A stretch of DNA of 32,000 nucleotides. It comes from Desulfotalea psychrophila LSv54. Its GTDB lineage: Bacteria; Desulfobacterota; Desulfobulbia; Desulfobulbales; Desulfocapsaceae. Position numbers and translations under genes: made by a program. Shown here in pieces: positions 3,255 to 27,849 of this stretch (position 1 is its first letter; each line of letters begins with the position of its first letter). Below the pieces are notes generated by a model. It was not told the origin of the DNA, made no database searches, and was given only the letters and a program-made list of their open reading frames with translations. The stretch lies in assembly GCF_000025945.1 (NCBI RefSeq), contig NC_006138.1, forward strand, positions 1,740,001-1,772,000. Reading direction: 5' to 3'.

Positions 3255-3333
3255 AGGTAAAAGGTTGTTTTTTAGAATTTAGGGGCGGAAACGCTTATTT
3301 TGTTGTGATATCCAAGGGAATGGACGCATATTT

Positions 3334-3696: not shown

Positions 3697-3784
3697 AATA
3701 ATTGTGTAGTTCTTTTGTGAACGAATGCGTGAGCATTGTCCTTTTATCGTTGAGCATGATGAGAAAGATTGGCATTGATGTATG

Positions 3785-5233: not shown

Positions 5234-5362
5234 ATCAAAATATTATTTTAACGTCTAAGTAGATAGATTTGTTGTAATGTGGTGAAAACCTTTCATATAC
5301 TCTGCACTTATTTTACCCGCTCTCTATCACATATCTTTTCTAGTGAGGTAAGCATTCATTGA

Positions 5363-6511
5363 TTAACCTGAGCAAATTATTTGTTCAACAACGCCTTGAA
5401 CTGTAATAGTCATTGTCTCTTCTGGTGTGTTATTGATTCTTACGTAGAAACTATTTTTTTTAATTTGTTCAGAGCTATATATTGGTTCGTATCTCATGCA
5501 TATTAGTATTGCTCCTATTAGCTTACGAAGTTTGGATGGTATTGGACCCAATAAAATTTTTTGGTGCTCTGGTTTGAGCTGAGTAGGATTTTCACTTTGA
5601 TAGAATTGTGAGAATGATTCTCGCACAGCTAGGCAATCCTCGTTTTGTCCATATGCTATTGATTTGTAGAGGTGCATTTTGCACGTAATGTTTGGAGAAC
5701 TAATAGGCAAATGCTCGAAAAATTCAAATTTTTCGATAAGGATTTTAAATTTTTTGGATCCATAACTGCTTAGACCATGGAAAAAAAGTAAGTGGATTTC
5801 ATCTGTTGAAAGTTGAGATCTAATGAAGTTGGAATATTGTTTTTTATTTTTTCCCTCTGCGTTAGTTTCTATGAACAAGAGGATTTGGTAGAGGGTTTTG
5901 TGGTAATGCGCTAAAGACGATTCTATCTCTTTGTATCTTGTATTATAACGTTCGATGATATGATTTCTATGGCAGTCGCGGTTTTCTATTTGAAAAGACA
6001 TGATGCGAAGGATCTCTGAGAAACATTTTTTGCGGGTAACGATTTTATTTTCAGAGATTAATTCGAGAGAGGCCACGATGTCGTTGTAAAGACTCATTAG
6101 GTGGAAGAACGTTTTTTCAAAATTGTCTTTTTGTATAGCTTGGTATTGCAGTTCCGCTGTGTCAGCAGCACATTTTTGTGCTACAGCAGATTTAGCCAGT
6201 TCCTTTCTTGTGAGCGTGAGTTCTTCTCTTGAGAGAGCTAGCTCAGTTTGAGATGTTTTGAGTTGTTGGGCTTGGAAGTGAAGGGTTAGCAGTATTGCTA
6301 TAAGTCCAAAAAAGCTGAGGATTGGGCCAAGAGATCCGCCAACAAAATCGCCAAATGCTGACCAGTCTGCTTGTGCTGTGCTAAACCCACTCTGGAAGTG
6401 ATAGAAATATGTACTGGGAACAACAACTAATCCCAAGAGACCCGCTATGCCTATGATAGTCAGGAAGTTTGGTAGATGGTTTTTTGTATCATTTGTGTAG
6501 GTAGGTTTCAT
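5363..6511 (-). CDS. putative abortive-infection membrane protein (putAbiC-like)
   Basis: 382-aa ORF. The N-terminal two-TM region with 'WSAFGDFVGGSLGPILSFFGLIAILLTL' followed by a coiled segment resembles the Pfam putAbiC family (recollection). Confidence 0.55.
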   Translation of the reverse strand: MKPTYTNDTKNHLPNFLTIIGIAGLLGLVVVPSTYFYHFQSGFSTAQADWSAFGDFVGGSLGPILSFFGLIAILLTLHFQAQQLKTSQTELALSREELTLTRKELAKSAVAQKCAADTAELQYQAIQKDNFEKTFFHLMSLYNDIVASLELISENKIVTRKKCFSEILRIMSFQIENRDCHRNHIIERYNTRYKEIESSLAHYHKTLYQILLFIETNAEGKNKKQYSNFIRSQLSTDEIHLLFFHGLSSYGSKKFKILIEKFEFFEHLPISSPNITCKMHLYKSIAYGQNEDCLAVRESFSQFYQSENPTQLKPEHQKILLGPIPSKLRKLIGAILICMRYEPIYSSEQIKKNSFYVRINNTPEETMTITVQGVVEQIICSG

Positions 6512-6546
6512 TCTTTAAGCTCTGGGCAGGTTGATTTGATCTTATG

Positions 6547-8124: not shown

Positions 8125-8160
8125 ATTACCCACTCCTCTTCTTGATCTTGACTTCTGCTT

Positions 8161-9074: not shown

Positions 9075-9536
9075 CTAACCGAGTTTCTTTTCTTGCCTGT
9101 GCTCTATTCTCTTCGCTTTTAGCCATTCCTTGAACTCTGGACTCTCCTGGGTAAGTTTTGCCTTGAGAAGTGCCCAGTAGTCTAATCCGTCGTCCTGTTC
9201 TTCTATCCACTCGATCAGTTCTTTGTGATGCTCATTGGTAATGCTTGTTGCCGTGCGAGCTTCTGTCTTGAAGTCAAAGTTGATGGCATCGCCTTTGGGT
9301 GGTGTATAGGAATACGGTTCTCCCACCCCAGTTGCCAGCCATTCGATATCGCATTTAAAAAACTCTGCTATTTTTACGAGTGTGGTCCGGTGTGGCGTCC
9401 CAACAAACCCTGATACCCACTTGCTCACCTGGGAAGGGTTCTTGCCAATGGCTCGGGCAAGGTCTTTTTGCTCAATTTTTTTTAAATCTATAAGCATTTG
9501 TAATCGCTTGCAAAACTCTTCCATGTAAGTCACCAC
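9075..9536 (-). CDS. XRE/cI-like phage repressor
   Basis: HTH 'IEQKDLARAIGKNPSQVSKWVSG' near the N-terminus with a C-terminal extension. Divergent from a Ner-like gene. The start may be the ATG at 9524 rather than the GTG at 9536. Confidence 0.75.
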   Translation of the reverse strand: MVTYMEEFCKRLQMLIDLKKIEQKDLARAIGKNPSQVSKWVSGFVGTPHRTTLVKIAEFFKCDIEWLATGVGEPYSYTPPKGDAINFDFKTEARTATSITNEHHKELIEWIEEQDDGLDYWALLKAKLTQESPEFKEWLKAKRIEHRQEKKLG

Positions 9537-12950: not shown

Positions 12951-13283
12951 TATCCTGCCATCCTGCGCCTGTCCTGTCGCTATCATGGCAACTATATTGT
13001 TGAAATAAATTGAAAAAATTGGACTAGCAGGACAGCAGGACAGCGTCTCCTTATACGCGCACACATAAGAGTTTTTAAAGCTTCTTTAACTGGCTTATAA
13101 AACTTCTCTTAGCTCTTTGTATAGAGACTTATATATCCTCTTATCCTGTTTGTTAATAATTATATGTAAAAATAAAGAGTTAAGAGCAGGATGAAAAAAG
13201 GATAGAGACAGGACAGCAGGATGGAGGAAAAAAAAGCAGGATAGCAGGATGACGAGGCAGGATAGGGGCAGGACAACAGGATG
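12951..13283. repeat. iteron cluster / candidate replication origin
   Basis: By eye, at least ten forward copies of (A/G)(G/A)CAGGA(T/C), for example AGCAGGACAGCAGGACAG at 13028-13045 and a run of five at 13236-13283. Four inverted copies (ATCCTG/GTCCTG) lie at 12951-12980 and about 13142. AT-rich tracts sit at about 12990-13020 and 13145-13182. Confidence 0.6.
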
Positions 13284-16293: not shown

Positions 16294-16869
16294 ATGACCG
16301 ACACCCCCAGCTGGCAAAACTATACCGAGACAAATAAAAAAGCCGATGTGCTGCGCTATCTGCAGGAGACGGGTTGGCAACTCAGAAAGCAGACCTTCTA
16401 CAACCACTGCGGGGATGGCAAACTCAAAAAAAACAGATCCGGTCTCTACTCAAAACAGGCCGTGAAAAAATATGCCGAAACATGGCTGGTCCATATCGGT
16501 TTGGGCAGCACGGTGGGCGAGGCGGAGGAGAACCTTGCCAAACAGAAGACCAAAAAAGAGATTGACCGGATCACCACCTCGGAACAGCACGAGCGCTTTA
16601 AACTCGATATCCTCCGGGGTAAATATATTGAGCGCTCCAAGGTAGAGCTGGAACTTGCCAGCCGTGCCGTGGTGCTCGATCACGGCCTGGACTATCTGAT
16701 AAAATCCAACGTGGCCGAGATGGTGGCCCTGGTGGGCGGTATGGCCGACAAGACAACCCTGCTGCTTGATTTTCTTCTGAAGAAAAAAGATGCACAGCTC
16801 TCGCACTATGCGAGTATCGATGATTTTACTGTAAACCTGCAAATAGAGAGCGAGGTGGAATCGTGCTGA
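16294..16869 (+). CDS. putative terminase small subunit (by position)
   Basis: 191-aa ORF whose stop overlaps the terL start. Occupies the Nu1 position. No motif recognised. Confidence 0.45.
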   Translation: MTDTPSWQNYTETNKKADVLRYLQETGWQLRKQTFYNHCGDGKLKKNRSGLYSKQAVKKYAETWLVHIGLGSTVGEAEENLAKQKTKKEIDRITTSEQHERFKLDILRGKYIERSKVELELASRAVVLDHGLDYLIKSNVAEMVALVGGMADKTTLLLDFLLKKKDAQLSHYASIDDFTVNLQIESEVESC

Positions 16870-18836
16870 GTCCCCCCAATGTGAAGATGTTCCAGGTGAA
16901 GAATATGTCTTATATCCCGGAGAGTCTGCAGAAGACGGGTTTCTGCCATACCACCTCGTTTTCTAAGGCGGAAAAACGGGTCCTGCGCAAAAAAAAATGG
17001 CAGGCTCCGAGTGAGTGGGCCCCAAAAAACAGGAAAATTGTTAAGGGTCAGCTTGCCGGCAACTATCTCAGCCTTGATATCACCCCCCATCTGCGCGGGA
17101 TCATGGATGCGGCCGTGCTTCCCTTTGTCCGTCGTCTGCATATTATGGCTGCACCGCAGACCGCAAAGACCACCCTGATAGATACCATCATCGCCTGGGC
17201 AACCATCTTTGCCCCTGGTCCTGCGGTCTCCTTTTATCCCGATGAGGTAACGGCCAAGAGATCCATGAAAGAGAGACTGCAGCCCATGGTTGCCGGTTCT
17301 CCCTCTCTGTCCCGTCTGCGTTCGGGCCATCGGGACGATTTCACCAACACCTCCATGGCCCTCTCTTCCATGACCTGGGAGGTGGGTTGGGTAGGTTCAA
17401 CCGCTCAGACCGCCGATAGATCCCTGCGCTATGTGGATATGCAGGAGGTGGATAAACCAAGTTATGGGGGGAGTAAGGAGGAGACCGGCGTGATCGAGCT
17501 GCTGCTGAAACGTCCCAGGGCCTATGGTGATACCTACAAGGTCTTCATCTCATCTTCACCCACCACCGAGGCGGGCAATATTAACATGATCATAGAGAAG
17601 GAGACCGAGGCAGTCTTCCTGCAATGGGTGCGCTGTCCCCACTGTCATGAAGAGGTGCTGATGCTCTTTAGCCACGACACCTTCCACTGGCCCCACGATG
17701 AGGAGGGACACAGTATTGACCGTAAAACGATTCTCAGTAAAAAGCTTGCCCGTTATATCTGCCCCGAATGTGCCGCCCTGTGGGATGATAACGATCGCAA
17801 TAAGGCCATTCGCCGTGATGTCTGGCGCCTGCGAATGGTGGATAATAAGGGCGAGACCCTCTATGAAAAGGGGGAGGAAATGTTTCGCTATCTGCAAAAG
17901 CACCGGCCTGCCTCCATCGGCTTTATCGTCCCCTCCTGGACAAGCTATATGGTCAGCCTCTCCGAGGTGGCCCACGACTTCCTCCGTTCCGTGGATAAAA
18001 ATATCAGTGCCGAAGAACGTCTCAAGGCCCTGAAGGATTTTAAAAACGGCCACGAGGCAAAACCGTGGAAACCGGAGATCGTAGAACGGGCGGAAGCGAG
18101 TCTTCTCCGGCTGAAAAATGATCTCCCCGCAACCGAGGTACCGGCTCAAGGGGTGGCAGGTCTCTTTGCCGGGGTCGATACCCAGGACGATGGTTTCTGG
18201 TACTGGGTCATGGCCGTGGGTTATGGCAGGGCGCCGGAGCGTTGGCTTCTTCGCTGTGGTTTTGTCTTCACCTTCGAGGCCGTGGTTCAGGTGCTCTGGG
18301 GCAATGAGTACAGGGATAAAAATGGCAATATCTATCCCGTTCATCTCTCCCTGCAGGATGCCATGGGCCATAGAACCTCGGATGTCTACGATTTCTGCGC
18401 CTCCCGTCACGGTCAGATACTACCCACCAATGGTCAGCAGACCATGGCCACCCCATACTCCACCAACGATGTCGAGTTTTATCCTGGTAGTGATAAGCGC
18501 AGGTTCCCGGGGGCGCTAAAGAGGGTGCGGGTCAATACCACCTACTATAAGGATAAGGCCGATGGCATTCTCAAGATCAATCCCGGTGATCCCGGGGGCA
18601 TCTCCTTTTATAGCGAGGTCTCCCGGGGAGATCTGCTACAGCTCTGTGCCGAAACACGAAATGAGAAGGGCTTTTGGGAGCAGATCGGGCAAAGAGATAA
18701 CCATCTCTGGGATTGTTTCTGTCTGGCCCTCTGTGCAGAGGATGTGGCCGGTGTCCGCTACTGGCCAACACCGGAAGAGCAGGAAGAGATGAGTGATGAT
18801 TTAGTGGTTGAAGATTATGCCGCAACACTGGGCTAA
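16863..18836 (+). CDS. terminase large subunit, lambda gpA family
   Basis: GTG at 16863 follows SD GAGGTGG. 657 aa. 'MAAPQTAKTT' P-loop-like segment, Zn-ribbon 'CPHCHEEV...CPECAALW', and gpA-like overall length and layout. Confidence 0.85.
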   Translation: MLSPPNVKMFQVKNMSYIPESLQKTGFCHTTSFSKAEKRVLRKKKWQAPSEWAPKNRKIVKGQLAGNYLSLDITPHLRGIMDAAVLPFVRRLHIMAAPQTAKTTLIDTIIAWATIFAPGPAVSFYPDEVTAKRSMKERLQPMVAGSPSLSRLRSGHRDDFTNTSMALSSMTWEVGWVGSTAQTADRSLRYVDMQEVDKPSYGGSKEETGVIELLLKRPRAYGDTYKVFISSSPTTEAGNINMIIEKETEAVFLQWVRCPHCHEEVLMLFSHDTFHWPHDEEGHSIDRKTILSKKLARYICPECAALWDDNDRNKAIRRDVWRLRMVDNKGETLYEKGEEMFRYLQKHRPASIGFIVPSWTSYMVSLSEVAHDFLRSVDKNISAEERLKALKDFKNGHEAKPWKPEIVERAEASLLRLKNDLPATEVPAQGVAGLFAGVDTQDDGFWYWVMAVGYGRAPERWLLRCGFVFTFEAVVQVLWGNEYRDKNGNIYPVHLSLQDAMGHRTSDVYDFCASRHGQILPTNGQQTMATPYSTNDVEFYPGSDKRRFPGALKRVRVNTTYYKDKADGILKINPGDPGGISFYSEVSRGDLLQLCAETRNEKGFWEQIGQRDNHLWDCFCLALCAEDVAGVRYWPTPEEQEEMSDDLVVEDYAATLG

Positions 18837-18845
18837 GGGGAGAGC

Positions 18846-19049
18846 ATGAAAAAGAACGGAACAATATTGGTGGGAATGGATCAGATCACCGCTTACGCAG
18901 GCAGAAACAAAGAGACCATCAGGCAGGCCATTGTTAGCCGTGGCTTCCCCGCAGTTAAGGTACGGGGAAGATGGGAGTCAAACAGTCAGCTCATTGAGGA
19001 GTGGCAGAGGAAGCAGATTGTTGCTGGGTGTGGGGTAACTCAACGATGA
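18846..19049 (+). CDS. small excisionase-type HTH protein
   Basis: SD GGGGAGAG. 'MDQITAYAGRNKETIRQAIVSRGFPAVKVRGRWESNSQLIEEW' has the excisionase/AlpA-like pattern. Composition is phage-like. Confidence 0.55.
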   Translation: MKKNGTILVGMDQITAYAGRNKETIRQAIVSRGFPAVKVRGRWESNSQLIEEWQRKQIVAGCGVTQR

Positions 19050-19058
19050 ATTAACTGG

Positions 19059-19078
19059 TTGCGGGGCTGTCTCCGCAA
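19059..19078. terminator. hairpin between convergent genes
   Basis: TTGCGG (19059-19064) pairs with CCGCAA (19073-19078) around an 8-nt loop. No strong T run. Confidence 0.3.
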
Positions 19079-19112: not shown

Positions 19113-20519
19113 CTAAATATCAAGTATCCGCAAGTTGTTTTTATTAATTCTTTCTGACCAGTATTTTGTTATCATTTCGATATGTTGATTTTCTGTAAAA
19201 GGAGTATAACTGGAAATATTCGTCAATTTATGATTTTCCTTTTCTACCATAATACGGTCTATATCTGACCAACGATATGTGTGTTTTTGGTATTCGCATA
19301 AAATTATTTTTCTAACATCATCAAAGATTGAATAGTGAAATTCATCAGTAATCAGCCTGTCTACATTTAATATTTCGCTGAGTATCATTTCTTGTTTTTT
19401 CTTACTGAATGATTTCCAATAAGTTGGGTTGATAAACCAATGATCGCTGCTATGCATCATGAATGTTTCAATAAAACATAAAATGGTGAGTGAGCTTTGG
19501 AAGTAATAATCTATAATATTTTTAAAAAAAATACTATGCACTCTATCAGCATAACAAAAAATATAGGTACAATTTTCCATTGGAATTATATTTGTCATTA
19601 AAAGCATTTTTTTTATACTTTTTTTATTACCATAGGCCAGTGCTGTGTACCCACAAAGAGAAACTGGAAATTTATGGTTAATGCAAATACCATGATTGAT
19701 TGTTGCTCTCTCCTCCTCTATTGTTTGATTATTGTATTCATTTAGTATTTGTTCGGAAAGTCTCTTAAGATAAGCTAGGCGTTTTTCGAAATCCTTTTCC
19801 ATTCCTTGAAAGCTGATCAGTAATTTGTCAATATTTTTGATATTGATTTTTGTTAATTCTTGCTCAATTCCTCGTTGTTTCAACCTATGCCTTAATATGC
19901 CTAATGCTTCTTGCTCGATTGCTGTTCTATATGTTTCTATTTGATTTTGAATTTTATCAATTTCAATATTTAACCATACGATCTCTCTGCAAATAGCCCT
20001 AAAAGTCTGTAACTGAATAAGAGAGTCTTCGTCGATTTCACCATTTTCAATAACTTGGAATATCTGTTCATGTTTTTCACAATATCCAGGAAAAGTTGAT
20101 GCGCTCTTTATACCTACAAGATTCATTGAAACTTTCAAATTTTTCGCAAATATATCAACTACGGGCTGAAGCACATGCCCTTGATCCGCTATATATTTAA
20201 GAGAATTACCTTTAGCAATAGAGTGTGATCTTTTAATACTTAGTGAATTGCAATTCGGATACACGCAACATCTTGGCCTATTTGTTATTTTTCTACTTTT
20301 ATGAGCTAATGATTTTAATAACGGTGCATAGATTTCAAATTGCTGCATCTTAAGAGAATTGTTTGCAATAAGTCGCATGATATTGTCAAATTCTTCACCA
20401 ATAATATCTGTTTCTTTCATTATTTCCGTGGGTGTCGATGTTTTAACATAAACTTCTAACAAGGTGTTATACAGGTCTGTATAACACACAATTTTGCGTA
20501 ATAGGTAGACTGTCGCCAC
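19113..20519 (-). CDS. uncharacterised 468-aa protein with a Cys/His motif region and central coiled coil
   Basis: AT-rich ORF. 'CCVYPNCNSLSIKRSHSIAKGNSLKYIADQGHV' and 'ASTFPGYCEKHEQIFQVIE' are followed by a coiled coil. Start uncertain between GTG 20519 and ATG 20420. Confidence 0.6.
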   Translation of the reverse strand: MATVYLLRKIVCYTDLYNTLLEVYVKTSTPTEIMKETDIIGEEFDNIMRLIANNSLKMQQFEIYAPLLKSLAHKSRKITNRPRCCVYPNCNSLSIKRSHSIAKGNSLKYIADQGHVLQPVVDIFAKNLKVSMNLVGIKSASTFPGYCEKHEQIFQVIENGEIDEDSLIQLQTFRAICREIVWLNIEIDKIQNQIETYRTAIEQEALGILRHRLKQRGIEQELTKINIKNIDKLLISFQGMEKDFEKRLAYLKRLSEQILNEYNNQTIEEERATINHGICINHKFPVSLCGYTALAYGNKKSIKKMLLMTNIIPMENCTYIFCYADRVHSIFFKNIIDYYFQSSLTILCFIETFMMHSSDHWFINPTYWKSFSKKKQEMILSEILNVDRLITDEFHYSIFDDVRKIILCEYQKHTYRWSDIDRIMVEKENHKLTNISSYTPFTENQHIEMITKYWSERINKNNLRILDI

Positions 20520-20640
20520 TCCACCCTCTGTAAAACTCTAACTGAGGTGATACATAAAAAAATGTTAAGCACAAGGGGTAAGCTGCTAGAGTCGCACGTA
20601 ATATGCAAAAAAAATAAGTTGTGGAGAGATGATCCACCCC
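20519..20640. repeat. copy A of a ~122-bp block shared with 25777-25900
   Basis: Hand alignment shows identical cores TCTAACTGAGGTGATACA, ACACAAGG, TAAGCTnCTAGAGTCGCACGnAATAT and ATGATCCAnCCCC. On the minus strand it contains TTGTGC-N16-TATCAC (20547-20574) and the SD of the 468-aa gene. Confidence 0.75.
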
Positions 20641-20790
20641 GATCAGTTCAGTAAACTCCTCAAGGAAAAGGGGATCAACGTCCAGAAGGTGGGCGGGGTT
20701 GTCTACCTCTGTGGCTACACCCTCTCAGGCGAGTTTCTGGAGTCGGTTGGGAAAGGGGTGTGGGGCAGGTGGTTTGCCTGCTCCGCATAA
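20629..20790 (+). CDS. small GC-rich ORF (53 aa), phage-like composition
   Basis: Hand translation gives MIHPDQFSKLLKEKGINVQKVGGVVYLCGYTLSGEFLESVGKGVWGRWFACSA. Its first 12 nt lie inside repeat copy A. Copy B keeps only a 9-codon stub. Confidence 0.3.
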   Translation: MIHPDQFSKLLKEKGINVQKVGGVVYLCGYTLSGEFLESVGKGVWGRWFACSA

Positions 20791-20934
20791 AAAAGATTCT
20801 TTGGCGTGTTTCTGTAGATGCGTAAAGCTAAGCTCACTGGCGGCTTTAATGAAAGTGGATTAACGATGAATCTTTATTGAAATTTTGGAAAAAGCTCCCT
20901 TGGACGCCCATTGCCGTCCGTGTGTATGCTGTCG

Positions 20935-21639
20935 TTAAGTGCCAGATATTGTATGGTAAATGATTTCTGAGGTTAGCTTGTTAAATTCTAAACAAGTGTC
21001 TCTGTCAACATTATCGTCATATCTTCTAAATAAACGCTCTCCTTCATCCAAAGACAATTTTTTTCCACCATATATTAATGGAACAATATAATACTCTGTA
21101 ATCTGTTCATCAAAAGCATTTTTATAACGGACTTTTAGATAACGTCTCAAATTGATAAAACAACTTTCATCGTTTTTCTGGCAGATCCCACTATATTGCT
21201 CATCAAGTTGAGACAGTTGAAGATTATTGTTTTTTCCAAAAATGGTTGCAAGTAACCCACTCCCTTTTGCCGTCATGTAACCTGCACGATAATAACCAAT
21301 TAGAGAGTAAGTTTTTTTCTTTTGCACATTTGGTGTTTTAGATAACTCAATATCTATAAGAACTAATGAATTATAGTGAAAATCAGAGATTATAAAACCA
21401 TTGTTCTCAATGAATATTTTATCCTCTGAATATATACCAGGTATATCATCCTTTAGTTGTTTTGCAGAAATAGTAAAAACAGGTGATATTTGTTTTTTTG
21501 CAATTTTGGTTTGGACATTTAGCAATTTTGTCTGTTCTTTTGAAATTGAACATTGGCTAAATGAAACTAATATCGCCATAATTGCCAATACAGTAGCTGT
21601 CACCGTTTGAAGGTAGAATTTCACATTTTCTTTGTTCAT
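20935..21639 (-). CDS. hypothetical N-terminally anchored membrane protein, partner of the KAP NTPase
   Basis: 234-aa ORF, 75 nt downstream of the KAP gene on the same strand. TM 'LQTVTATVLAIMAILVSF'. No family recognised. Confidence 0.6.
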   Translation of the reverse strand: MNKENVKFYLQTVTATVLAIMAILVSFSQCSISKEQTKLLNVQTKIAKKQISPVFTISAKQLKDDIPGIYSEDKIFIENNGFIISDFHYNSLVLIDIELSKTPNVQKKKTYSLIGYYRAGYMTAKGSGLLATIFGKNNNLQLSQLDEQYSGICQKNDESCFINLRRYLKVRYKNAFDEQITEYYIVPLIYGGKKLSLDEGERLFRRYDDNVDRDTCLEFNKLTSEIIYHTISGT

Positions 21640-21714
21640 ATTTTTTATACTTAATGCCGTGCTCTGTGGTAAATTTGTAGTGCAGCGGGAAATTTGTCCG
21701 ACAGCAGTGCTTTG

Positions 21715-24000
21715 TTAGATTTGTGGCCAATCATCTTCGATGCCTTTTTCTCTTTGTTTTAAGGCAGCTGTGAAAAGTTTTATTGCTTCTTTGCCTTGTG
21801 CATCCATTTTTTGTTCATCGATATTACTTATTGCACTGGCAATTGGTTCGACTTCGATAAAGTTTTCTATGTCTTTCAGCTTTATATAGCTAGTAATTTT
21901 TGCTACAGAATCTTCCATTGTTTGAGAAGAAGAGTTATTAACGAATCCTTTAAGCAAATTGACACATCCATCTGCGTTTGCTGTCTGGGCTTTTAGCCAC
22001 GCAACGACCTTGTCTTCCTCCCCCCAGCGTTTCCATCTGTATAGGAAAGAAACTAGATGCTCATGTGTTATAAGCATCTCTGGATTAGTTTCAGACATAC
22101 GGTCCAATTTATGTACGAATTCTTGTTTGATCTCCTCAAATTCGTTATCCAGCAACAGAATTTTTGTTTCCGAATTCTCTCGACTATTTTCATCATGTTG
22201 TAAAATGTTCTCAACAATAGAAATACCATCTGAATTTTGGAAGCATCTCAACAATAATTGACCCCTTTCTTTACTATTGTCAACTCTCCGAAGGAAACAA
22301 ACAGCTAATTGTACTGCATGCATATTGGAGCTGGACATGGTAAAACCCATATATTTATGGTCGACTTTATCGCCTATATCAATTAGTGCTTTGATATAAC
22401 TGTAGCCATCTCCTAAAGGGATCTCATCAGTAAATGATTCAAATTGAGATAGAGCATTTTTTAGTATCCCACGTTCCATTAACAATAGAATAAATGATGA
22501 AAAACTCTCAGAGTCCGATGTGCGCGAAAGCATGTCTCTAAGATCTGAATTAGAAAGCTCACCTTTGGGAATTGAAAACTGAAAGTATTTATTGAAATTT
22601 GAGGGATGACATACTCGCATCTCTCGTAACCATCTCTTGCTAAAACAATCGGCATATTGTCTGCCATTAAGAGCCCATTCAATTGCAGGAAATAGCTGCT
22701 TTATCAGTTCTCTTACATGTTCTCTTTTATTTGTACTTGCCTTATCTAAAATTCCATTGATCAGAGAAGTTATAGCTTCCCTACTTTTTTTATCCCCGCT
22801 ATAACTACTTTTCGTAAATATATCTTTTGACCGGGCTATTTCTTTATATATTTCAGGTTCAAATATTCTTATACATTCAATTGCTATAAGATCGACGGGG
22901 TTAACCTCAAATACAGATTTACCCTTCAATAACGAAAAATGAAATGAAAGTGTTGATGTATAACGATACACGTTCCTCAAATTGTCGAAGTAAGCATGTA
23001 ATGCCCCACGAAAAATATTGCCCCAGCGCCCAGAATCAAACATTTCTGCTGCAGATTTATCTTGTTTAATAACTTGATCAATTCTACTGAACAACAAATC
23101 ATGAAGGAGTGTAACTTCAATTTTTGGAATATCAAAAGGGACTTGTATGATTTTTTCTAAATAGTCACGACCTAACTGTTTACCATCAGTTAATTTCTCT
23201 TCTACTAAATCACGCTGGAAAAGAAGAAGAAAAACCACTTTAGGAAACTCAAGGTTTGCCTTAACAAGCTGAAATACCATTCTTAGTTGGCCGGGCGTAA
23301 GTCGATCCAAATCATCCATAACTACAATCAATGATGATGCTCTTTCTGACAATAGAGATGTTAGCTCTTGTCTAATGTCACTTAAGCTTTGCTCCTTTTC
23401 TTTTGCTGTTGCCTCAGCATTACCACTAAGTTTGTTTAGTAGTCCTTTTCCCCACTTGAGGGCTGCTGCCCAAGCTGCCAATAGGCCTAAAATAGCTGTG
23501 CTAACCGTTTTTACCCAAGATTCACCAGAGAAGTTCCCCCCAACCCCTACCAGGGTAGCTAAAATAAATAGTGTTGGTAGAGCCGCTGAGAGGCCTGTAA
23601 CTAGAGATTCTCCAGTATTTAAGTATCTGCCATACTTTTTAAGCGTTGCGGACAGTTTTTTTCCTGACTTACTTTTATCTATTCGACCTATTGATTTTGA
23701 TATTTCTTGAAAAAACGAAGCTGTAATTTTATCTTGAGCTGCCCATTCCCAAGGAGAAAACTCGACAACATCCGGTCTGTTCTCAGTTAGGCTTTTTAGG
23801 TTAGCTACAGCCATATTTTTAATGGATGATTTTCCTGACCCCCAATCACCATGTAGGGCAACGACAAGACTGTCTTTTCCATGCCATCCAGCGATTGCAT
23901 CTGCCAAATCTTTAGAAAATTTGGATCGGCCTAGTAAATCTTCTTTTATTTTTAGGATTGGTCTATCGGAAGCAAATCCATGTACGTCTTGTGAATCCAT
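21715..24000 (-). CDS. KAP-family P-loop NTPase with two TM segments inserted in the NTPase domain
   Basis: Walker A 'LHGDWGSGKSSIKNM'. Hydrophobic inserts 'LSAALPTLFILATLVGVGG' and 'VSTAILGLLAAWAAAL'. Walker B 'LIVVMDDLDRLTPGQ', then 'YLEKIIQVPFDIP'. Long helical C-terminal region. Confidence 0.85.
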   Translation of the reverse strand: MDSQDVHGFASDRPILKIKEDLLGRSKFSKDLADAIAGWHGKDSLVVALHGDWGSGKSSIKNMAVANLKSLTENRPDVVEFSPWEWAAQDKITASFFQEISKSIGRIDKSKSGKKLSATLKKYGRYLNTGESLVTGLSAALPTLFILATLVGVGGNFSGESWVKTVSTAILGLLAAWAAALKWGKGLLNKLSGNAEATAKEKEQSLSDIRQELTSLLSERASSLIVVMDDLDRLTPGQLRMVFQLVKANLEFPKVVFLLLFQRDLVEEKLTDGKQLGRDYLEKIIQVPFDIPKIEVTLLHDLLFSRIDQVIKQDKSAAEMFDSGRWGNIFRGALHAYFDNLRNVYRYTSTLSFHFSLLKGKSVFEVNPVDLIAIECIRIFEPEIYKEIARSKDIFTKSSYSGDKKSREAITSLINGILDKASTNKREHVRELIKQLFPAIEWALNGRQYADCFSKRWLREMRVCHPSNFNKYFQFSIPKGELSNSDLRDMLSRTSDSESFSSFILLLMERGILKNALSQFESFTDEIPLGDGYSYIKALIDIGDKVDHKYMGFTMSSSNMHAVQLAVCFLRRVDNSKERGQLLLRCFQNSDGISIVENILQHDENSRENSETKILLLDNEFEEIKQEFVHKLDRMSETNPEMLITHEHLVSFLYRWKRWGEEDKVVAWLKAQTANADGCVNLLKGFVNNSSSQTMEDSVAKITSYIKLKDIENFIEVEPIASAISNIDEQKMDAQGKEAIKLFTAALKQREKGIEDDWPQI

Positions 24001-24032
24001 ACGATCTCTCTGAAGAATCTACGTTAAGTTCA

Positions 24033-24052
24033 CCAGCGAGCCCCAGCGAGCC
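24033..24052. repeat. tandem 10-mer CCAGCGAGCC x2
   Basis: Read directly. A GC-rich patch in the AT-rich upstream region of the KAP gene, next to the tRNA fragment. Confidence 0.6.
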
Positions 24053-24110
24053 CAGTGGAGTGAAACGGAGCGGTGTTAAAGGCCTTGTTAACTGATTGTA
24101 TTATGTTATT

Positions 24111-24138
24111 TGGGGAAAAGGGGAGGAATCGAACCTCC
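24111..24138 (-). other. tRNA 3'-end fragment (T arm + acceptor 3' strand + CCA); att-site-like remnant
   Basis: Minus strand reads GGAGG-TTCGATT-CCTCC-CCTTTTC-C-CCA. This is a 5-bp T stem, canonical 7-nt T loop, 7-nt acceptor strand, discriminator and CCA. No matching 5' acceptor strand (GAAAAGG) or D arm lies upstream. Confidence 0.5.
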
Positions 24139-24616
24139 CTGCGCTCTCTTTTGACTGATACTATATTTTAAGGTCCATCTATCTCTCATCTAGGTTGGAA
24201 AAATAGTCGTCAGACCTCTCCAGGAGCGCATTTCCAAACCAAGCGTATGCCATTTTAGAAAACCAACTAGCGTTTGCGTTTTTCATAATCACCTCAATTG
24301 CACAAGAAAAAACGTATGAAAGCAACCATTCCAACCCAAACAAGATTCCAATTTCCCATCCAATAAGTATCTTTGACGTCAAACTCTAATTATTTATCAA
24401 TCTATTTTGAATACGTTCTATACCTTTTTGGTGGTGATACCAATTTGTTGTTTAGTAAAATTACTGCTCTATAAAAGTTCTAAAAAATTTATCATGTATT
24501 TCGGTTGTTTTGAAAATACTATTGCTTTACGACTTAGCCTTATTTGCAACTTAAAATCCTGTAACTCAATGTTGCCGAGAGGCCGACAATTTTATATGTA
24601 TCCATGTCAGAACCTT

Positions 24617-24640
24617 AAAAAAGAGCACATTAAGTGTGCT
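24617..24640 (-). terminator. rho-independent terminator of the DUF3800-like gene
   Basis: On the minus strand, AGCACA-CTTAA-TGTGCT is followed by CTTTTTT. It begins 19 nt after the stop codon. Confidence 0.5.
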
Positions 24641-24658
24641 ACTTGGCACAGTGCTTTG

Positions 24659-25768
24659 TTAATCAATTTTACCAGCACGCATCGGAGCCATTAGATCCTT
24701 GAGACCTACTTCACAGTCCAACATATCATATTTTCCAGCAAGTCCGACATAAATGCTCTCACGCATATCATTTACCTTTTTTAAGTACGGCATGGTTTTC
24801 TGCGCAACAAATCCAACAAATTTTTCAAGGTCAGAGACAGAGCTAGGAATTTTATATCCATCTCGTGAGGCAGAAATTAACGCGCCATTATTTCGTAATT
24901 TTGCAATTACATTTGATCTTAGCCATCCCTTGTCTTTATTCAGTTCAATTAGACCTTCATTCTTTAGATGCTCAAGCAATGCATCACCGTATATAAATCC
25001 ATCATCTTCATCGCCAACAGAATACAGTAAATACTGTAGTGTTTCTGCTAATACACGATCTTTTTCTCTTGCCAATACTTCTTCGGCAGCATGAGTGCAA
25101 TGACGAAAGACCAGCTGATCTTCAATGCTGGTATCTACGTCAATATGGGGATCTTCTTTGGCCCTTGGCCACACGTGTACCATCCCCAATGCGGGCTTTA
25201 ATGTATCGAATGCAGATGAATCTTCCTGTTTTTCCATAAACCGACGTACCGTACCTCCAACAAAATCTGCCACCTGCAATAATTCTGACTCTATTGGTGT
25301 TGAATACTTTATTTCACGACTTGAGAACAAGTCTTGCTGAAAATGCTTGTTGATATATGGCGCGAAAGAATCCATGAAATCCTGAGAACCGTGGGTGTCA
25401 ACAACCACAATGACCTGGCTTATGCCCTTATAAATCTTTTCAAACAACCTGCGCTGACAATGCTTATAGGTTGATGATTTAAATCTAAAACCACCATTTT
25501 TGTGAAGCCGGCTCTTCATAATTATCATCACAACAAAACGAGCTCTTAATTGGCCTAGGCTTTCACATATATCTTTTCGTCGCTTTAGATTTGAACCAAC
25601 TTTTGATGACTTTAATTCTTTTCCCACGCCATGTTTATTGCGGATTTCACGAAGCAATGCGCTATCATGATCAAGGTCATTTTCGTCGTTAATTACCGCA
25701 CAGATGACATAGCAATCATCATTCAGGACTGGATCGCCCGATTCATCAATATGTATTCGTTTTCGCAT
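24659..25768 (-). CDS. DUF3800-family protein with a C-terminal wHTH-like extension
   Basis: ATG at 25768 lies 8 nt after SD GGAG; the ORF track extends to 25861. N-terminus 'MRKRIHIDESGDP' is the DUF3800 signature, with a later 'VVVDTHGS'. The C-terminal ~100 aa are rich in a helix/turn pattern. Confidence 0.7.
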   Translation of the reverse strand: MRKRIHIDESGDPVLNDDCYVICAVINDENDLDHDSALLREIRNKHGVGKELKSSKVGSNLKRRKDICESLGQLRARFVVMIIMKSRLHKNGGFRFKSSTYKHCQRRLFEKIYKGISQVIVVVDTHGSQDFMDSFAPYINKHFQQDLFSSREIKYSTPIESELLQVADFVGGTVRRFMEKQEDSSAFDTLKPALGMVHVWPRAKEDPHIDVDTSIEDQLVFRHCTHAAEEVLAREKDRVLAETLQYLLYSVGDEDDGFIYGDALLEHLKNEGLIELNKDKGWLRSNVIAKLRNNGALISASRDGYKIPSSVSDLEKFVGFVAQKTMPYLKKVNDMRESIYVGLAGKYDMLDCEVGLKDLMAPMRAGKID

Positions 25769-25776
25769 ATCATTTT

Positions 25777-25900
25777 CTCCACTTTCTGTAATGTCTCTAA
25801 CTGAGGTGATACACAAATATCTTGCTAAACACAAGGAATAAGCTACTAGAGTCGCACGCAATATACAGAAAGTAACTTATAAAGAAATGATCCATCCCCC
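25777..25900. repeat. copy B of the ~122-bp block shared with 20519-20640
   Basis: See copy A. On the minus strand it contains TTGTGT-N17-TATCAC (25806-25834) and the SD of the DUF3800 gene. The plus-strand end carries the stub ATGATCCATCCCCCTCTTGGTAGCATGTAG. Confidence 0.75.
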
Positions 25901-26096
25901 TCTTGGTAGCATGTAGCAAGTTCTCCTCACCCTGTTTCAAAACCCCCCCAAACGAAACACCTGTCAATAATCTTTAATAGCACGTACACGGCCATAGACG
26001 GCCATAAACGCGCATACACGTCTGGCGCCTAAAACAGGGTGTACTATCTCCGTATAAGTTTTGAGCTTTTTTAATAACCTCTGCGGAGAGAATCTC

Positions 26097-26330
26097 GTGG
26101 CCCCTATTGTCTGTAGTTTAGAAGAGTACCAAGCAGCACGTACAGCCAGAACCCGTCTGATAGAGGGCGCCAGGGCGGTGCGAGTGACCATCGACGGTGA
26201 CAGCACCGAGTTTACTCAGGTGAGTCTGCCCCAGCTCAACGAGACCATTGCCGGAATGCAGGCATACCAGAACTTGACCAGTGGTAATGGTGTGGTGGCC
26301 TTCAATATTCACGGCTGCAAGGGCTTCTGA
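26097..26330 (+). CDS. gpW-like head-tail joining protein
   Basis: GTG at 26097 lies 7 nt after SD GGAGAG. About 77 aa. 'LEEYQAARTARTRLIEGARAVRVTIDGDSTEFTQVSLPQLNETIAGMQ' fits the gpW pattern, and the gene sits immediately before the portal gene. Confidence 0.6.
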   Translation: MAPIVCSLEEYQAARTARTRLIEGARAVRVTIDGDSTEFTQVSLPQLNETIAGMQAYQNLTSGNGVVAFNIHGCKGF

Positions 26331-26331
26331 T

Positions 26332-27849
26332 ATGGGATCAATCGTCGATATGCACGGCAGACCCTTTGCCCAGGCCAGTTCCTCCGGAGGTTTTGGCCCT
26401 CTCTATGAGGGGGCATCCACCGCTGATCGGATCGGTACCTGGGGGCTTTCACCGGCTGGGCCCAACGTTGGCCAGAACGGGATCATTGCCATCAAGAAAC
26501 GCTCCCGCCAGAGCGAGCGCAATAATCCCACTGCCAACGGGGCCATCGATGCCTTTGTCTCCAACCTTGTCGGTACTGCCATCTCTCCTGCCTGGCAAAT
26601 TGATAATTTATTGCAAAAGGAGGAGCTGGAATCCCTCTGGCAGGACTCCCAGAAACAGCTTGATTATGTGGGCTTCACCGACTTCTACGGACAGCTTGAG
26701 CTTATCTGCCGCTCCATGGTGCGTGATGGTGAAGGTCTTGCCGTGATCCATGAGTTGCAACCCTCCCTTGATAATATTGTCCCCATTCAGATCCAGCCCC
26801 TGGAGTCTGACCACCTCGACCCCAACTTCAACGATATTTCGCCCGAAGGAAACGAGATCCGTTTCGCCATCGAGTGGAAGGCGGGTAAACGCTATCGCTA
26901 CTGGCTCTATGACAACCATCCGGGCGAGGTCTTTCTCTGCGCGGATAATATCAGACGAATTCCTGTGCCAGCGGCAGATGTTCTCCATGTCTTCCGTCTG
27001 AAAAGGGCAGGGCAGTGTCGTGGCAGTGGTTGGCTCGGTTCTGTGATCACCAAGCTTCATGACATTGATGTCTATGACGATGCCGAGCTTGTCCGGAAGA
27101 AAGCGGCCGCCCTCTGGGGTGGTTTCATCTATCAGGATAATCAGGTGGCATCTACTTCCAGTAATCCCTTTGGTGGCACCCCTGGGGCCAGATCAAACGG
27201 CGTGCAGAGCATTGAGCTGAAGGCGGGCCATTTTCCCGTATTGCGAGATGGAATGAAGATCGCCTTCTCCGAGTCGGCCGATGTGGGCAACAACTATAAA
27301 GAGTTTATGAAGACTCAGTTTCGCCTCATTGCCCGGGGCATTGGCATCACCTATGAGCAACTCACCGGCGATCTGGAAGGGGTGACCTATAGCTCTATCC
27401 GCTCCGGCCTCATCGAATTTCGCAGACTCTGTGAAACCATTATCGCCCGTACCCTGGTCTTTCAGTACTGCCGACCCATCGTCGATCGTTGGATTCGTGC
27501 TGCCATCCTCAACGGTTGTCTCAAGACCATCACCCCTGGTGAGTATCTTGCCAATCCCCGTCTCTTTCATCGGGTTGATTGGCATCCCCATGGTTGGGAT
27601 TTCACCGATCCAGTCAAGGACCGAGTGGCTGAGCTGATGGATATCAGAAGCGGGATCAAGAGTCGTCGGCAGGTGGTGGCCAAACGTAATGGCAGTGTTG
27701 AGGTGGTGGATCGTGAGAACCGCGAAGACCTGCAACGTGCCGTGGATAATGGCCTTGTCTACGATTGCTATCCCGGCCAGACCACGGGCAGTGGTGCGAT
27801 TCAAAAGGTAAGCGAACAAGTAATTCTACAATCCCTGGAGACAAAATGA
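26332..27849 (+). CDS. portal protein, lambda gpB family
   Basis: ATG at 26332 directly after the gpW stop. About 505 aa. Lies between gpW and the S49 protease, with motif-rich similarity to lambda-family portals (recollection). Confidence 0.85.
   Translation: MGSIVDMHGRPFAQASSSGGFGPLYEGASTADRIGTWGLSPAGPNVGQNGIIAIKKRSRQSERNNPTANGAIDAFVSNLVGTAISPAWQIDNLLQKEELESLWQDSQKQLDYVGFTDFYGQLELICRSMVRDGEGLAVIHELQPSLDNIVPIQIQPLESDHLDPNFNDISPEGNEIRFAIEWKAGKRYRYWLYDNHPGEVFLCADNIRRIPVPAADVLHVFRLKRAGQCRGSGWLGSVITKLHDIDVYDDAELVRKKAAALWGGFIYQDNQVASTSSNPFGGTPGARSNGVQSIELKAGHFPVLRDGMKIAFSESADVGNNYKEFMKTQFRLIARGIGITYEQLTGDLEGVTYSSIRSGLIEFRRLCETIIARTLVFQYCRPIVDRWIRAAILNGCLKTITPGEYLANPRLFHRVDWHPHGWDFTDPVKDRVAELMDIRSGIKSRRQVVAKRNGSVEVVDRENREDLQRAVDNGLVYDCYPGQTTGSGAIQKVSEQVILQSLETK

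What the first reader, a model, noticed from the sequence alone, without database searches (positions are those of the whole stretch)
20519..25900. Two cargo genes 5.2 kb apart are preceded by the same ~122-bp block
- The repeat: blocks 20519-20640 and 25777-25900 align over their full length, roughly four-fifths identical by hand alignment with small indels.
- Minus-strand content: each block supplies the SD (GTGGAG) and a promoter-like TTGTG(C/T)-N16/17-TATCAC. It also holds a perfectly conserved upstream core (CGTGCGACTCTAG) immediately 5' of the 468-aa gene (copy A) and the DUF3800 gene (copy B).
- Plus-strand content: the far end of each block carries ATGATCCA(C/T)CCC. This starts a 53-aa GC-rich ORF in copy A but only a 9-codon stub in copy B.
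- Two readings: the genes may share one regulator-controlled promoter and so be functionally linked. Alternatively, the block is the conserved edge of a cargo slot, and the two copies record tandem accretion of alternative cassettes by recombination.
- Minor extra: on the plus strand the block also has a short ORF (MLSTRGKLLESHVICKK... in copy A, LLNTRNKLLESHAIYRK in copy B). Its differences include two synonymous Leu changes, which is too few to call coding.
Basis: seen in the sequence. Interest (0 to 1): 0.7.

Follow-up and report, generated by a model that had tools for sequence, protein, structure and literature searches.

The report
Repeated head block in prophage defence hotspot
A real but ordinary 122-bp non-coding repeat heads two stacked cargo units in a prophage's anti-phage gene hotspot, and it most likely records how the units were joined by recombination, not a shared control switch.

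Summary
The repeat is real. Windows 20519-20640 and 25777-25898 align at 97/124 positions (78%, E~4e-21), with sharp edges and only two copies in the window.

The window is a lambda-head-type prophage of Desulfotalea psychrophila LSv54. The blocks lie in a low-GC island between two backbone units: terminase gpA plus a 67-aa HTH, and gpW plus portal. In nine related phages (50-63% identity) the same slot holds different cargo, such as AbiL, toxin-antitoxin pairs, a kinase and methylase/nuclease modules. It is therefore a defence/accessory hotspot.

- Absence elsewhere: the block is missing from all those relatives, from the upstream regions of homologs of both headed genes, and from every searchable collection.
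- What it is not: it shows no structured RNA, no Rfam match, no conserved minus-strand reading frame and no sigma-70 promoter signal above background. Its "perfect cores" are no longer than chance allows at 78% identity.
- Reader corrections: the "468-aa" gene really starts 98 nt beyond block A, so that SD is orphaned. The "53-aa ORF" is a relic of a D5-primase C-terminus.

Best reading: a lineage-specific cassette-head or slot-edge segment, present twice because two cassettes were stacked by recombination. A shared promoter is possible by position but unsupported.

The parts
16863..18836 (+). Terminase large subunit, lambda gpA type. This is the backbone on the left side of the slot.
   Evidence: Pfam GpA_ATPase 8.9e-40 and GpA_nuclease 9.6e-41. 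It is 100% identical to a D. psychrophila LSv54 protein.
18846..19049 (+). 67-aa excisionase/HTH_17-like ORF (HTH67). It is a conserved backbone gene and marks the left edge of the slot. It is not gpW.
   Evidence: Homologs of 37-52% identity directly follow the terminase in L001-L004, L010 and L013. Weak matches to phrog_66 (3.6e-4) and MADS1 HTH.
19058..19077 (.). GC-rich hairpin in the gap between the convergent HTH67 and 435-aa genes. It is a possible bidirectional terminator.
   Evidence: Fold z-scores of -1.7 on both strands, with a 10-bp stem. No U-run follows, so function is inferred only.
19113..20420 (-). Cassette 1 cargo: a 435-aa protein (DP1578, annotated as 468 aa) from an uncharacterised family.
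   Evidence: 39 homologs; those at 54-64% identity all start at M34. No Pfam, PADLOC or PDB match. AlphaFold model pLDDT 90.7 with no structural neighbour. GC 30.6%.
20421..20518 (-). 98-nt leader between block A and the true start codon. It contains a perfect 11-bp palindrome at 20464-20487 and has no counterpart in copy B.
20519..20640 (.). Block A, the first copy of the 122-bp repeat. Its GGAG is not followed by a usable start codon.
20629..20790 (+). GC-rich 53-aa ORF. It is a relic of the C-terminal domain of a D5-type primase from a distantly related element, and its first 12 nt overlap block A.
   Evidence: 30% identity to residues 539-578 of this phage's own primase (E 2e-6; 0 of 300 shuffles reach the score). 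41% identity to residues 541-567 of the L001 primase (E 3e-6). No other homolog among 1.8 billion representatives. GC 56% against 41% for the block.
20935..21639 (-). Cassette 2 cargo: a 234-aa protein with an N-terminal hydrophobic segment, lying downstream of PifA.
   Evidence: ORF list. No family match.
21715..24000 (-). Cassette 2 cargo: a 761-aa PifA-like KAP-family P-loop NTPase.
   Evidence: PADLOC PifA 2.6e-82 over the full length. Pfam KAP_NTPase 1.6e-38.
24659..25768 (-). Cassette 2 head gene: a 369-aa DUF3800 protein (DP1581, annotated as 400 aa). A terminator-like hairpin with a U-run follows its stop codon.
   Evidence: Pfam DUF3800 1.4e-09. Homologs are 366-386 aa long. Terminator-like site at 24640-24624.
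25777..25898 (.). Block B, the second copy. Its GGAG lies 8 nt before the DUF3800 ATG. Its far end keeps only ATGATCCATCCC of the primase relic.
25920..26096 (+). Conserved backbone module upstream of W: a GTTTC..GAAAC inverted repeat, CCTGTCAA, three ~11-bp GCCATAC-type iterons, AAAAACAGGGTGTA, then the W start. It marks the right edge of the slot.
   Evidence: Alignment of nine phages (A4).
26097..26330 (+). gpW-like head-tail adaptor.
   Evidence: phrog_75 'head-tail adaptor Ad1' 4.9e-11. Homologs lie immediately before the portal in relatives.
26332..27849 (+). Portal protein, lambda family.
   Evidence: Pfam Phage_portal_2 2e-94. Relatives at 59-63% identity.

Best explanation
The 122-bp block is a non-coding, lineage-specific 'head' segment: a 5' leader with a Shine-Dalgarno and probably expression signals. 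It sits at the W-proximal end of minus-strand accessory cassettes in a defence/accessory hotspot. That hotspot lies between two plus-strand units, terminase-HTH67 and W-portal, in a lambda-head-type prophage of Desulfotalea psychrophila LSv54.

The block is present twice because two cassettes that each carried a version of this head were stacked in tandem by recombination. The partners were most likely sibling phages or elements whose heads had already diverged by about 20%.

Copy B is still in working position. It abuts the backbone module upstream of W on one side and provides the SD for DUF3800 on the other. Copy A is now internal and is largely a scar. Its SD is orphaned, a foreign 98-nt leader separates it from the 435-aa gene, and it is fused to a relic of a foreign primase gene.

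Shown here: the repeat, its sharp edges, the hotspot, the gene starts, the primase relic, and the absence of the block elsewhere. Inferred: the recombination history, and that block B carries the DUF3800 promoter.
For: - Repeat: it is significant, has sharp edges and shows transition-biased divergence typical of homologous DNA.
- Hotspot: the slot holds different cargo in relatives. L001/L002 carry AbiLi/AbiLii, L003 a Gp49/HI1420 toxin-antitoxin pair, L004 Fic/MqsA/DUF4258, L011 a PD-T4-6-like kinase plus Vsr/C5-methylase plus AAA/DUF2357-PDDEXK, and L013 a 958-aa unknown protein. The window carries a 435-aa unknown protein, PifA and DUF3800.
- Composition: the island is 30-40% GC against 50-56% for the flanking backbone genes.
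- Not native to the genes: the two headed genes are unrelated. Their homologs elsewhere (54-68% identity, four distinct contexts) lack the block.
- Copy A as a scar: the true start is 98 nt beyond block A, leaving an orphan SD.
- Copy B in position: it lies about 22 nt from the conserved W-upstream module. It occupies 122 of the roughly 150 nt available upstream of the DUF3800 ATG.
- Primase relic: it begins inside the last 12 nt shared by both copies. The block-relic junction therefore appears to predate the split between A and B.
Against: - No sibling phage close enough to retain non-coding homology was found. The best terminase relative is 59% identical and the best portal relative 63%. So 'slot edge' and the single-cassette ancestors are not observed.
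- The recombination history cannot be reconstructed from one locus.
- The claim that the last 12 nt belong to the primase relic rests on only 1-3 aligned residues.
- The promoter role of block B is positional only. No sigma-70-like signal exceeds background, although promoter rules in Desulfotalea are not established.
- An in-situ duplication followed by cargo replacement is not excluded.
Confidence: 0.55

Rival explanations
1. Shared cis-regulatory module. Both copies would be active promoters or operators bound by one regulator, so that DUF3800 and the 435-aa gene are co-regulated and functionally linked. This can coexist with the accretion history. The rival claim is that function, not history, explains the conservation.
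For: Both copies lie 5' of the first gene of a minus-strand unit. Block B is essentially the only non-coding DNA upstream of DUF3800. A terminator-like hairpin after DUF3800 suggests separate transcription units that each need a promoter.
Against: - The candidate hexamers score 2.4-3.2 bits against a background best of 7.9 +/- 1.8.
- The conserved runs are no longer than chance at 78% identity.
- The conserved 8-mers are not enriched elsewhere and are absent from the immunity region and the W-upstream module (16 observed against 18.6 expected).
- The distance to the start codon differs by 98 nt between the copies.
- PifA, a bona fide defence gene lying between them, lacks the block.
- The two genes do not co-occur in other genomes examined.
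Confidence: 0.22
2. Recombination site. The two blocks would be attL/attR-like direct repeats left by Campbell-type insertion of a ~5.26-kb circular cassette (primase relic, 234-aa gene, PifA, DUF3800, block) into a resident block. They could also mediate loop-out of that cassette.
For: Direct repeats in the same orientation flank a discrete 5.1-kb segment and have sharp edges on both sides. The longest identical run, 19 bp, could serve as a crossover core. A conserved excisionase-like HTH sits at the slot edge in every relative.
Against: There is no integrase or recombinase in or beside the slot. The 78% similarity spread over 122 bp is unlike core-plus-arms att sites. There is no hairpin or attC-like structure. 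No analogous repeats head the cassettes in the multi-cassette relatives L011 and L004.
Confidence: 0.1
3. Dispersed host repeat or miniature mobile element (REP/MITE-like) that happens to have landed twice in the island.
For: The size (~120 bp) and sharp boundaries are compatible. The host genome itself could not be searched.
Against: There are no terminal inverted repeats conserved in both copies. Only two copies occur in 32 kb. There are no matches in GTDB genomes, JGI metagenomes, IMG/VR, plasmids or phages. Both copies sit in the same orientation at equivalent positions relative to the genes.
Confidence: 0.04
4. The block encodes a plus-strand micro-protein (17 codons, MLSTRGKLLESHVICKK / LLNTRNKLLESHAIYRK) behind a strong conserved SD-like GAGGTGAT, or it encodes a small RNA.
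For: The frame is preserved for 17 codons, with 3 synonymous and 5 mostly conservative changes. GAGGTGAT lies 10-11 nt upstream within the 19-nt identical run (read directly).
Against: Two copies give no statistical power. The start codon differs (ATG versus TTG) and so does the ORF end (30 versus 17 codons). No promoter exceeds background on the plus strand. No stable or conserved fold was found (z from -0.04 to -0.85), and there is no Rfam hit.
Confidence: 0.05

Closest known systems
[quoted passage not shown] 2022, PMC9122126)
   Same: A fixed slot between conserved phage genes carries highly variable defence and toxin-antitoxin cargo across relatives. In P2 the slot lies between replication gene gpA and portal gpQ. 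Here it lies between terminase/HTH67 and W/portal. Known systems appear among the cargo: PifA here, and AbiL, PD-T4-6-like kinase and methylase/nuclease modules in relatives.
   Different: The phage family is different (lambda-type gpA terminase, portal and capsid E, in Desulfobulbales hosts), and so is the slot. There is no evidence that the slot is next to cos, which that paper invoked to explain recombination. That paper does not describe a repeated head block between stacked cassettes, as far as I read it.
Morons of lambdoid phages (Juhala, Hendrix and colleagues, 2000; from my own knowledge)
   Same: Extra genes inserted between adjacent late or structural genes, with deviating base composition and presumably their own transcription signals, expressed from the prophage.
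   Different: Classic morons are single units flanked by their own promoter and terminator. Here several units are stacked and two of them share a homologous 5' segment. Promoter and terminator activity is not demonstrated.
Conserved 'boundary' or 'linker' sequences at module junctions in lambdoid phages, proposed to guide homologous exchange of modules (Susskind and Botstein's modular theory; Clark et al. 2001 on HK620; from my own knowledge)
   Same: A short non-coding stretch of homology at the edge of exchangeable modules could serve as a crossover point and would be left at junctions.
   Different: Those sequences are shared between different phages. Here the homology is seen only within one prophage, and no second phage carrying it could be found.
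Integron cassette arrays (attC sites)
   Same: Repeated ~60-140-bp non-coding elements separate stacked, unrelated cargo genes.
   Different: There is no imperfect-palindrome hairpin and no integrase. The block lies 5' and not 3' of the gene. One 'cassette' holds several genes, and PifA has no block.

Membership tests
Prophage defence/accessory hotspot (moron-type cargo slot) | The same slot, bounded by conserved backbone genes, holds different genes in related phages. | tested here: met
   Nine relatives show terminase-HTH67 | variable cargo | W-portal. The slot ranges from about 1.0 kb to more than 9.7 kb.
Prophage defence/accessory hotspot (moron-type cargo slot) | The cargo includes recognisable defence or toxin-antitoxin systems. 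| tested here: met
   PifA 2.6e-82 in the window. In relatives: AbiLi 4.9e-88 and AbiLii 3.5e-22, PD-T4-6 3.6e-34, MTase/Vsr, Gp49/HI1420, Fic/MqsA.
Prophage defence/accessory hotspot (moron-type cargo slot) | Base composition deviates from the backbone. | tested here: met
   Cargo genes are 30.6-39.7% GC. HTH67, W and the neighbouring backbone are 50-57% GC.
Prophage defence/accessory hotspot (moron-type cargo slot) | The cargo has its own promoter and terminator and is expressed in the lysogen. | tested here: inconclusive
   A terminator-like hairpin follows DUF3800 and a GC hairpin lies at the left edge. No promoter signal exceeds background. Expression is not testable here.
Sigma-70 promoter | -35 and -10 hexamers with 16-18-nt spacing that score above the local background, at homologous positions in both copies. 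| tested here: not met
The best conserved plus-strand candidate (TAGAGT) scores 7.4-7.9 bits. The background best per 200 nt is 7.9 +/- 1.8 bits. The consensus scan does not flag it.
Sigma-70 promoter | A mapped transcription start site. | not testable with these tools
   Requires dRNA-seq or 5'-RACE in D. psychrophila LSv54.
Integron attC site | An imperfect internal palindrome that folds into a hairpin, with an integron integrase nearby. | tested here: not met
   Fold z-scores run from -0.04 to -0.85 and the structures differ between copies. No conserved inverted repeat was found. No integrase lies in or beside the slot.
REP/MITE-type interspersed repeat | Terminal inverted repeats. | tested here: not met
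   No inverted repeat is shared by both copies.
REP/MITE-type interspersed repeat | Many dispersed copies in the host genome. | not testable with these tools
   Only two copies occur in the window, and none in other collections. The LSv54 locus itself is not retrievable from genome contigs, so the rest of the host genome could not be verified.
attL/attR of an integrated element | An identical core flanked by dissimilar arms, with a cognate recombinase in the element. | tested here: not met
   Similarity is spread over 122 bp at 78%, with a longest identical run of 19 bp. There is no recombinase among the enclosed genes.
Structured non-coding RNA, riboswitch or leader | A match to a known family, or a stable fold conserved between copies. 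| tested here: not met
   No Rfam hit at E <= 1. No fold is better than shuffled controls.
Protein-coding sequence | A reading frame conserved across the copies. | tested here: inconclusive
   Minus strand: indels put the two copies in different frames across the block (read), so it is not coding. Plus strand: a 17-codon frame is preserved, but two copies give no statistical power.

The most novel reading that the evidence does not exclude
The block would be a dedicated docking site that lets this phage lineage stack or swap defence cassettes at the terminase-W hotspot. This would work like an integron but without an integron integrase. It might be serviced by the excisionase-like HTH67 protein, which is conserved at the slot edge in every relative, together with a host or phage recombinase. 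The 5.26-kb segment between the blocks would then be an excisable unit.
Probability: 0.06. Interest if true: 0.75.

Novelty: new member of a known kind. Interest (0 to 1): 0.3.

Why it matters
The repeat itself is a modest finding: it marks a junction between two stacked cargo units. The context is more useful.
- It defines a previously undescribed defence/accessory hotspot, between the lambda-type terminase (plus a conserved small HTH) and gpW/portal, in temperate phages of sulfate-reducing Desulfobulbales. Prophage biology in that group is barely explored.
- The slot can be used as a 'guilt-by-location' trap for new defence genes. One candidate is the 435-aa DP1578 family, which models confidently but has no sequence or structural relative. 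Others are the DUF3800 protein and the 958-aa protein in L013.
- If sibling phages are found, the block offers a concrete case for testing how hotspots gain a second cassette instead of replacing the first.

Tried and rejected
- Searches for the block elsewhere all came back empty. These were E. coli genomes, INPHARED phages, PLSDB plasmids, IMG/VR, GTDB genomes and JGI metagenomes. The pattern is valid in the window. The source locus itself is not retrievable from genome contigs, so the test for a repeat scattered in the host genome stays open.
- Exact-protein look-ups for the 67-aa ORF and the portal (GTG start) returned nothing.
- IMG/VR held no relatives of the terminase or DUF3800.
- An nhmmer profile of the block against 16 fetched loci found nothing (best E 3.8-4.4).
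- Structured RNA, riboswitch and attC readings were rejected.
- A sigma-54 promoter was considered by eye in TCGCACG-N4-ATGCA. I rejected it because the essential GG is CG in both copies and the GC is AC in copy B.
- Minus-strand coding was rejected because indels shift the frame.
- A shared operator with the immunity region or the W-upstream module was rejected.
- Homology extending beyond the block edges was rejected.
- The block as the native upstream region of DUF3800 or of the 435-aa family was rejected.
- ORF53 as a conserved gene was rejected.
- A repeated head block as a general feature of multi-cassette slots was not seen in L011, L004 or L013.
- Function of the 435-aa protein: sequence and fold searches against the PDB and BFVD gave nothing.

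Full report
**1. Observation**

The two blocks exist exactly where stated. Window 20519-20640 aligns with 25777-25898 at 97 of 124 columns (78%), with four gap columns. E is 1e-22 for the pair and about 4e-21 against the whole window. Substitutions are transition-biased (18 transitions to 5 transversions; Jukes-Cantor distance 0.22), as expected for diverged homologous DNA. A profile built from the two copies finds only these two places in the 32-kb window (E 7e-39 and 5e-38). The core words occur only twice. Homology stops sharply on both sides: permissive local alignment of either flank is no better than shuffles (46/500 and 151/500).

**2. Genomic context**

The terminase is 100% identical to a protein of Desulfotalea psychrophila LSv54 on a 3.52-Mb contig. 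The cargo genes are DP1578 and DP1581. The window is a temperate phage with these features:
- an HTH_3 repressor, a CII-like protein, a D5-type primase and a DnaG-like primase;
- lambda-type head genes: terminase gpA at 16863-18836 and portal at 26332-27849, plus an S49 protease and major capsid protein E.

The true gpW is at 26097-26330 (phrog_75, 4.9e-11). The 67-aa ORF after the terminase (18846-19049) is therefore not W. It is an excisionase/HTH_17-like protein (weak matches).

Between this ORF and W lies a 6.9-kb island of 30-40% GC, flanked by 50-57% GC backbone. All convincing genes in it are on the minus strand:
- a 435-aa protein of unknown function;
- a 234-aa protein;
- a PifA-like KAP NTPase (PADLOC 2.6e-82);
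- a DUF3800 protein.

**3. The slot is a hotspot**

I recovered nine related phages from metagenomes and MAGs of Desulfotalea, Desulfobulbus, Desulfopila, Desulforhopalus and other Desulfobulbaceae. Their terminase and portal proteins are 50-63% identical to those of the window. Each one that spans the region has the order terminase, HTH67 homolog, variable cargo, W, portal. The cargo differs every time:

| Locus | Cargo in the slot |
|---|---|
| L001/L002 | AbiLi/AbiLii (4.9e-88 and 3.5e-22) |
| L003 | Gp49/HI1420 toxin-antitoxin pair |
| L004 | Fic, MqsA-like and DUF4258 genes |
| L011 | PD-T4-6/Stk2-like kinase; Vsr plus C5-methylase; AAA plus DUF2357/PDDEXK pair |
| L013 | 958-aa unknown protein |
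| L010 | only small ORFs |

In L011 the terminase is on the same contig but more than 10 kb from the portal. I infer this from the matching contig length of 29,423.

The right edge of the slot is a conserved non-coding module upstream of W, present in all nine phages. It comprises a GTTTC..GAAAC inverted repeat, CCTGTCAA, three ~11-bp GCCATAC-type iterons, AAAAACAGGGTGTA and, in most relatives, a CATGAAAAA..TTTTTCATG palindrome (alignment A4). In the window this module starts near 25920, about 22 nt beyond block B. Structurally the slot is therefore a gap between two plus-strand backbone units. That would explain why it tolerates insertions (inference).

**4.

- **Copy A's start codon and SD.** Ten homologs of the '468-aa' protein all begin at its M34, which is invariant. 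The gene is 19113-20420 (435 aa), and block A ends 98 nt upstream of the start codon. The GGAG at the end of block A has no usable start codon behind it. The intervening 98 nt has no counterpart in copy B and contains a perfect 11-bp palindrome at 20464-20487.
- **Copy B's start codon and SD.** Homologs of DP1581 are 366-386 aa long. This supports the ATG at 25768, which lies 8 nt after the block's GGAG.
- **The 53-aa GC-rich ORF.** It is not a gene launched by the block. It aligns with the C-terminal domain of this phage's own D5-type primase (residues 539-578, E 2e-6, 0 of 300 shuffles as good). It also aligns with the primase of L001 (residues 541-567, 41% identity, E 3e-6). It has no other homolog among 1.8 billion representative proteins. 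It is a relic of a primase 3' end from a distantly related element. Composition jumps from 41% GC to 56% GC at the junction. The primase alignment starts at the ORF's first residues (M-I-H-P), which are the last 12 nt of the repeated block. Copy B keeps exactly those 12 nt and nothing more. On thin evidence (1-3 residues), this suggests the block-relic junction predates the divergence of A and B.

**5. What the block is not**

- **Not a structured RNA or hairpin site.** Fold z-scores run from -0.04 to -0.85, the predicted structures differ between copies, and no inverted repeat is shared. There is no Rfam match at E <= 1.
- **Not minus-strand coding.** Indels put the two copies in different frames.
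- **No promoter signal.** The best conserved candidate on either strand is the plus-strand TAGAGT, at 7.4-7.9 bits. The best hit in random 200-nt windows of the same island averages 7.9 +/- 1.8 bits. The consensus scan did not flag the block.
- **No excess conservation in the cores.** The 19-nt and 13-nt identical runs are no longer than expected from 78% identity (P = 0.165 and 0.22).
- **No shared operator.** Conserved 8-mers of the block are not enriched elsewhere in the window (16 observed, about 18.6 expected). They do not occur in the immunity intergenic region or the W-upstream module.

**6. Where else the block occurs**

Nowhere that could be searched. It is absent from:
- the same slot in the nine relatives;
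- the upstream regions of homologs of the 435-aa gene (L005-L008) and of DUF3800 (L014-L016);
- E. coli genomes, INPHARED phages, PLSDB plasmids, IMG/VR, GTDB species genomes and JGI metagenomes.

The search pattern does match both window copies. However, neither that pattern nor the portal search returned LSv54 from genome contigs.

The two headed genes are unrelated (E = 2.0). They occur in quite different neighbourhoods elsewhere. The 435-aa family lies next to HEPN/RiboL-PSP or resolvase and AbiEii genes. DUF3800 lies directly after an Mrr-type restriction gene. The block therefore belongs to the slot in this phage lineage, not to either gene.

**7. Most likely explanation**

The block is the 5' non-coding head of cassettes resident at the W-proximal end of this hotspot. 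Two cassettes carrying already-diverged versions of it became stacked by recombination.

- **Copy B** retains the working arrangement: backbone module, block, SD, gene. By position it must contain whatever promoter DUF3800 uses, because the block fills 122 of the roughly 150 nt available.
- **Copy A** is internal. It has an orphan SD, a foreign leader on one side and the primase relic on the other.

The 22% divergence argues for two sources and against a recent in-situ duplication, but this is inference. I put this explanation at about 0.55.

The main rival is a functional shared promoter or operator (about 0.22). It is compatible with the same history but has no sequence support. The other rivals are less likely:
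- a Campbell-type or att-like site bounding an excisable 5.26-kb unit (about 0.10);
- a plus-strand micro-ORF or small RNA (about 0.05);
- a host interspersed repeat (about 0.04).

**8. Comparison with known systems**

[quoted passage not shown] There, variable defence systems occupy a fixed slot, which in P2 lies between gpA and the portal gpQ next to cos (PMC9122126). The present locus works like that and like lambdoid 'morons' (my own knowledge). It differs in phage family, host clade and slot. Stacked cassettes that share a homologous head recall the proposed 'boundary sequences' of lambdoid module exchange (my own knowledge), but the block was not seen in any second phage. The integron attC, MITE/REP, att-site, riboswitch and sigma-70 promoter definitions were each tested and not met.

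**9. Verdict**

The repeat is an ordinary by-product of mosaic phage evolution in a new example of a known kind of hotspot. Interest is about 0.3, mostly because the hotspot and its uncharacterised cargo are a useful lead, not because of the block itself.

Noticed in passing
window 25920-26096; L001 14330-14535, L003 4440-4665, L010 4100-4285, L013 9560-9750, L012, L009, L011 (alignment A4): A conserved non-coding module lies upstream of gpW in all nine related phages. It comprises a GTTTC..GAAAC inverted repeat, CCTGTCAA, three ~11-bp GCCATAC-type direct repeats, AAAAACAGGGTGTA and, in most relatives, a CATGAAAAA..TTTTTCATG palindrome before the W start. It looks like an activator-dependent late promoter or regulatory region for the W-portal-head operon.
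   Followed up: partly
window 12951-13275: Eleven GCAGGAYR iterons cluster between the D5-type primase and the DnaG-like gene. The whole window has 16 matches against 3.7 expected by chance. This is probably the phage replication origin, bound by the primase C-terminal domain, the same domain of which ORF53 is a relic.
   Followed up: partly
window 2655-8133 (minus strand): A second low-GC defence-like island lies next to the HTH_3 repressor (9075-9536). It holds a KAP NTPase (3785-5233), a putAbiC-domain protein (5363-6511) and a DUF4041/T5orf172 protein (6547-8133). None of them carries the 122-bp block.
   Followed up: partly
window 19113-20420 (minus strand): The DP1578 family has 39 homologs with invariant Cys/His positions. 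Its neighbourhoods elsewhere look defence-related (HEPN RiboL-PSP, AbiEii, resolvase). It gives a confident AlphaFold model (pLDDT 90.7, pTM 0.88) with no significant match in the PDB or BFVD and no Pfam, PADLOC or NCBIfam family. It is a candidate new defence protein or fold.
   Followed up: partly
window 20464-20487: A perfect 11-bp inverted repeat (GTGTTATACAG-GT-CTGTATAACAC) sits in the 98-nt leader of the 435-aa gene, between block A and the start codon. It looks like an operator and is absent from copy B and from the homologs' upstream regions.
   Followed up: no
window 19113-20519 and 24659-25861: The deposited gene models DP1578 (468 aa) and DP1581 (400 aa) appear to have starts that are too far upstream. 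Homolog alignments support 435 aa (ATG 20420) and 369 aa (ATG 25768).
   Followed up: yes
window 18846-19049; L001 12009-12194, L003 3487-3681, L004 4460-4699, L010 2894-3097, L013 ~6068-6241: A small excisionase/HTH_17-like protein is conserved immediately after the terminase large subunit, at the left edge of the hotspot, in every relative. Its role is unknown; it could be a late regulator or act in recombination.
   Followed up: partly
L011 210-266 and 897-953: A ~57-100-nt direct repeat (about 71-72% identical) flanks a minus-strand 175-aa ORF with GIY-YIG-like motifs (GVYAFWWVG...LYVGKSTNIKKRF). It is unrelated in sequence to the window's block and may be the footprint of a homing-endonuclease-type insertion.
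   Followed up: partly
window 24179-24382 (minus strand): A small ORF lies between DUF3800 and PifA. An internal ATG is preceded by GAGGTGAT and would give a 35-aa product, MKNANASWFSK... It has no family match, and its coding status is unknown.
   Followed up: no
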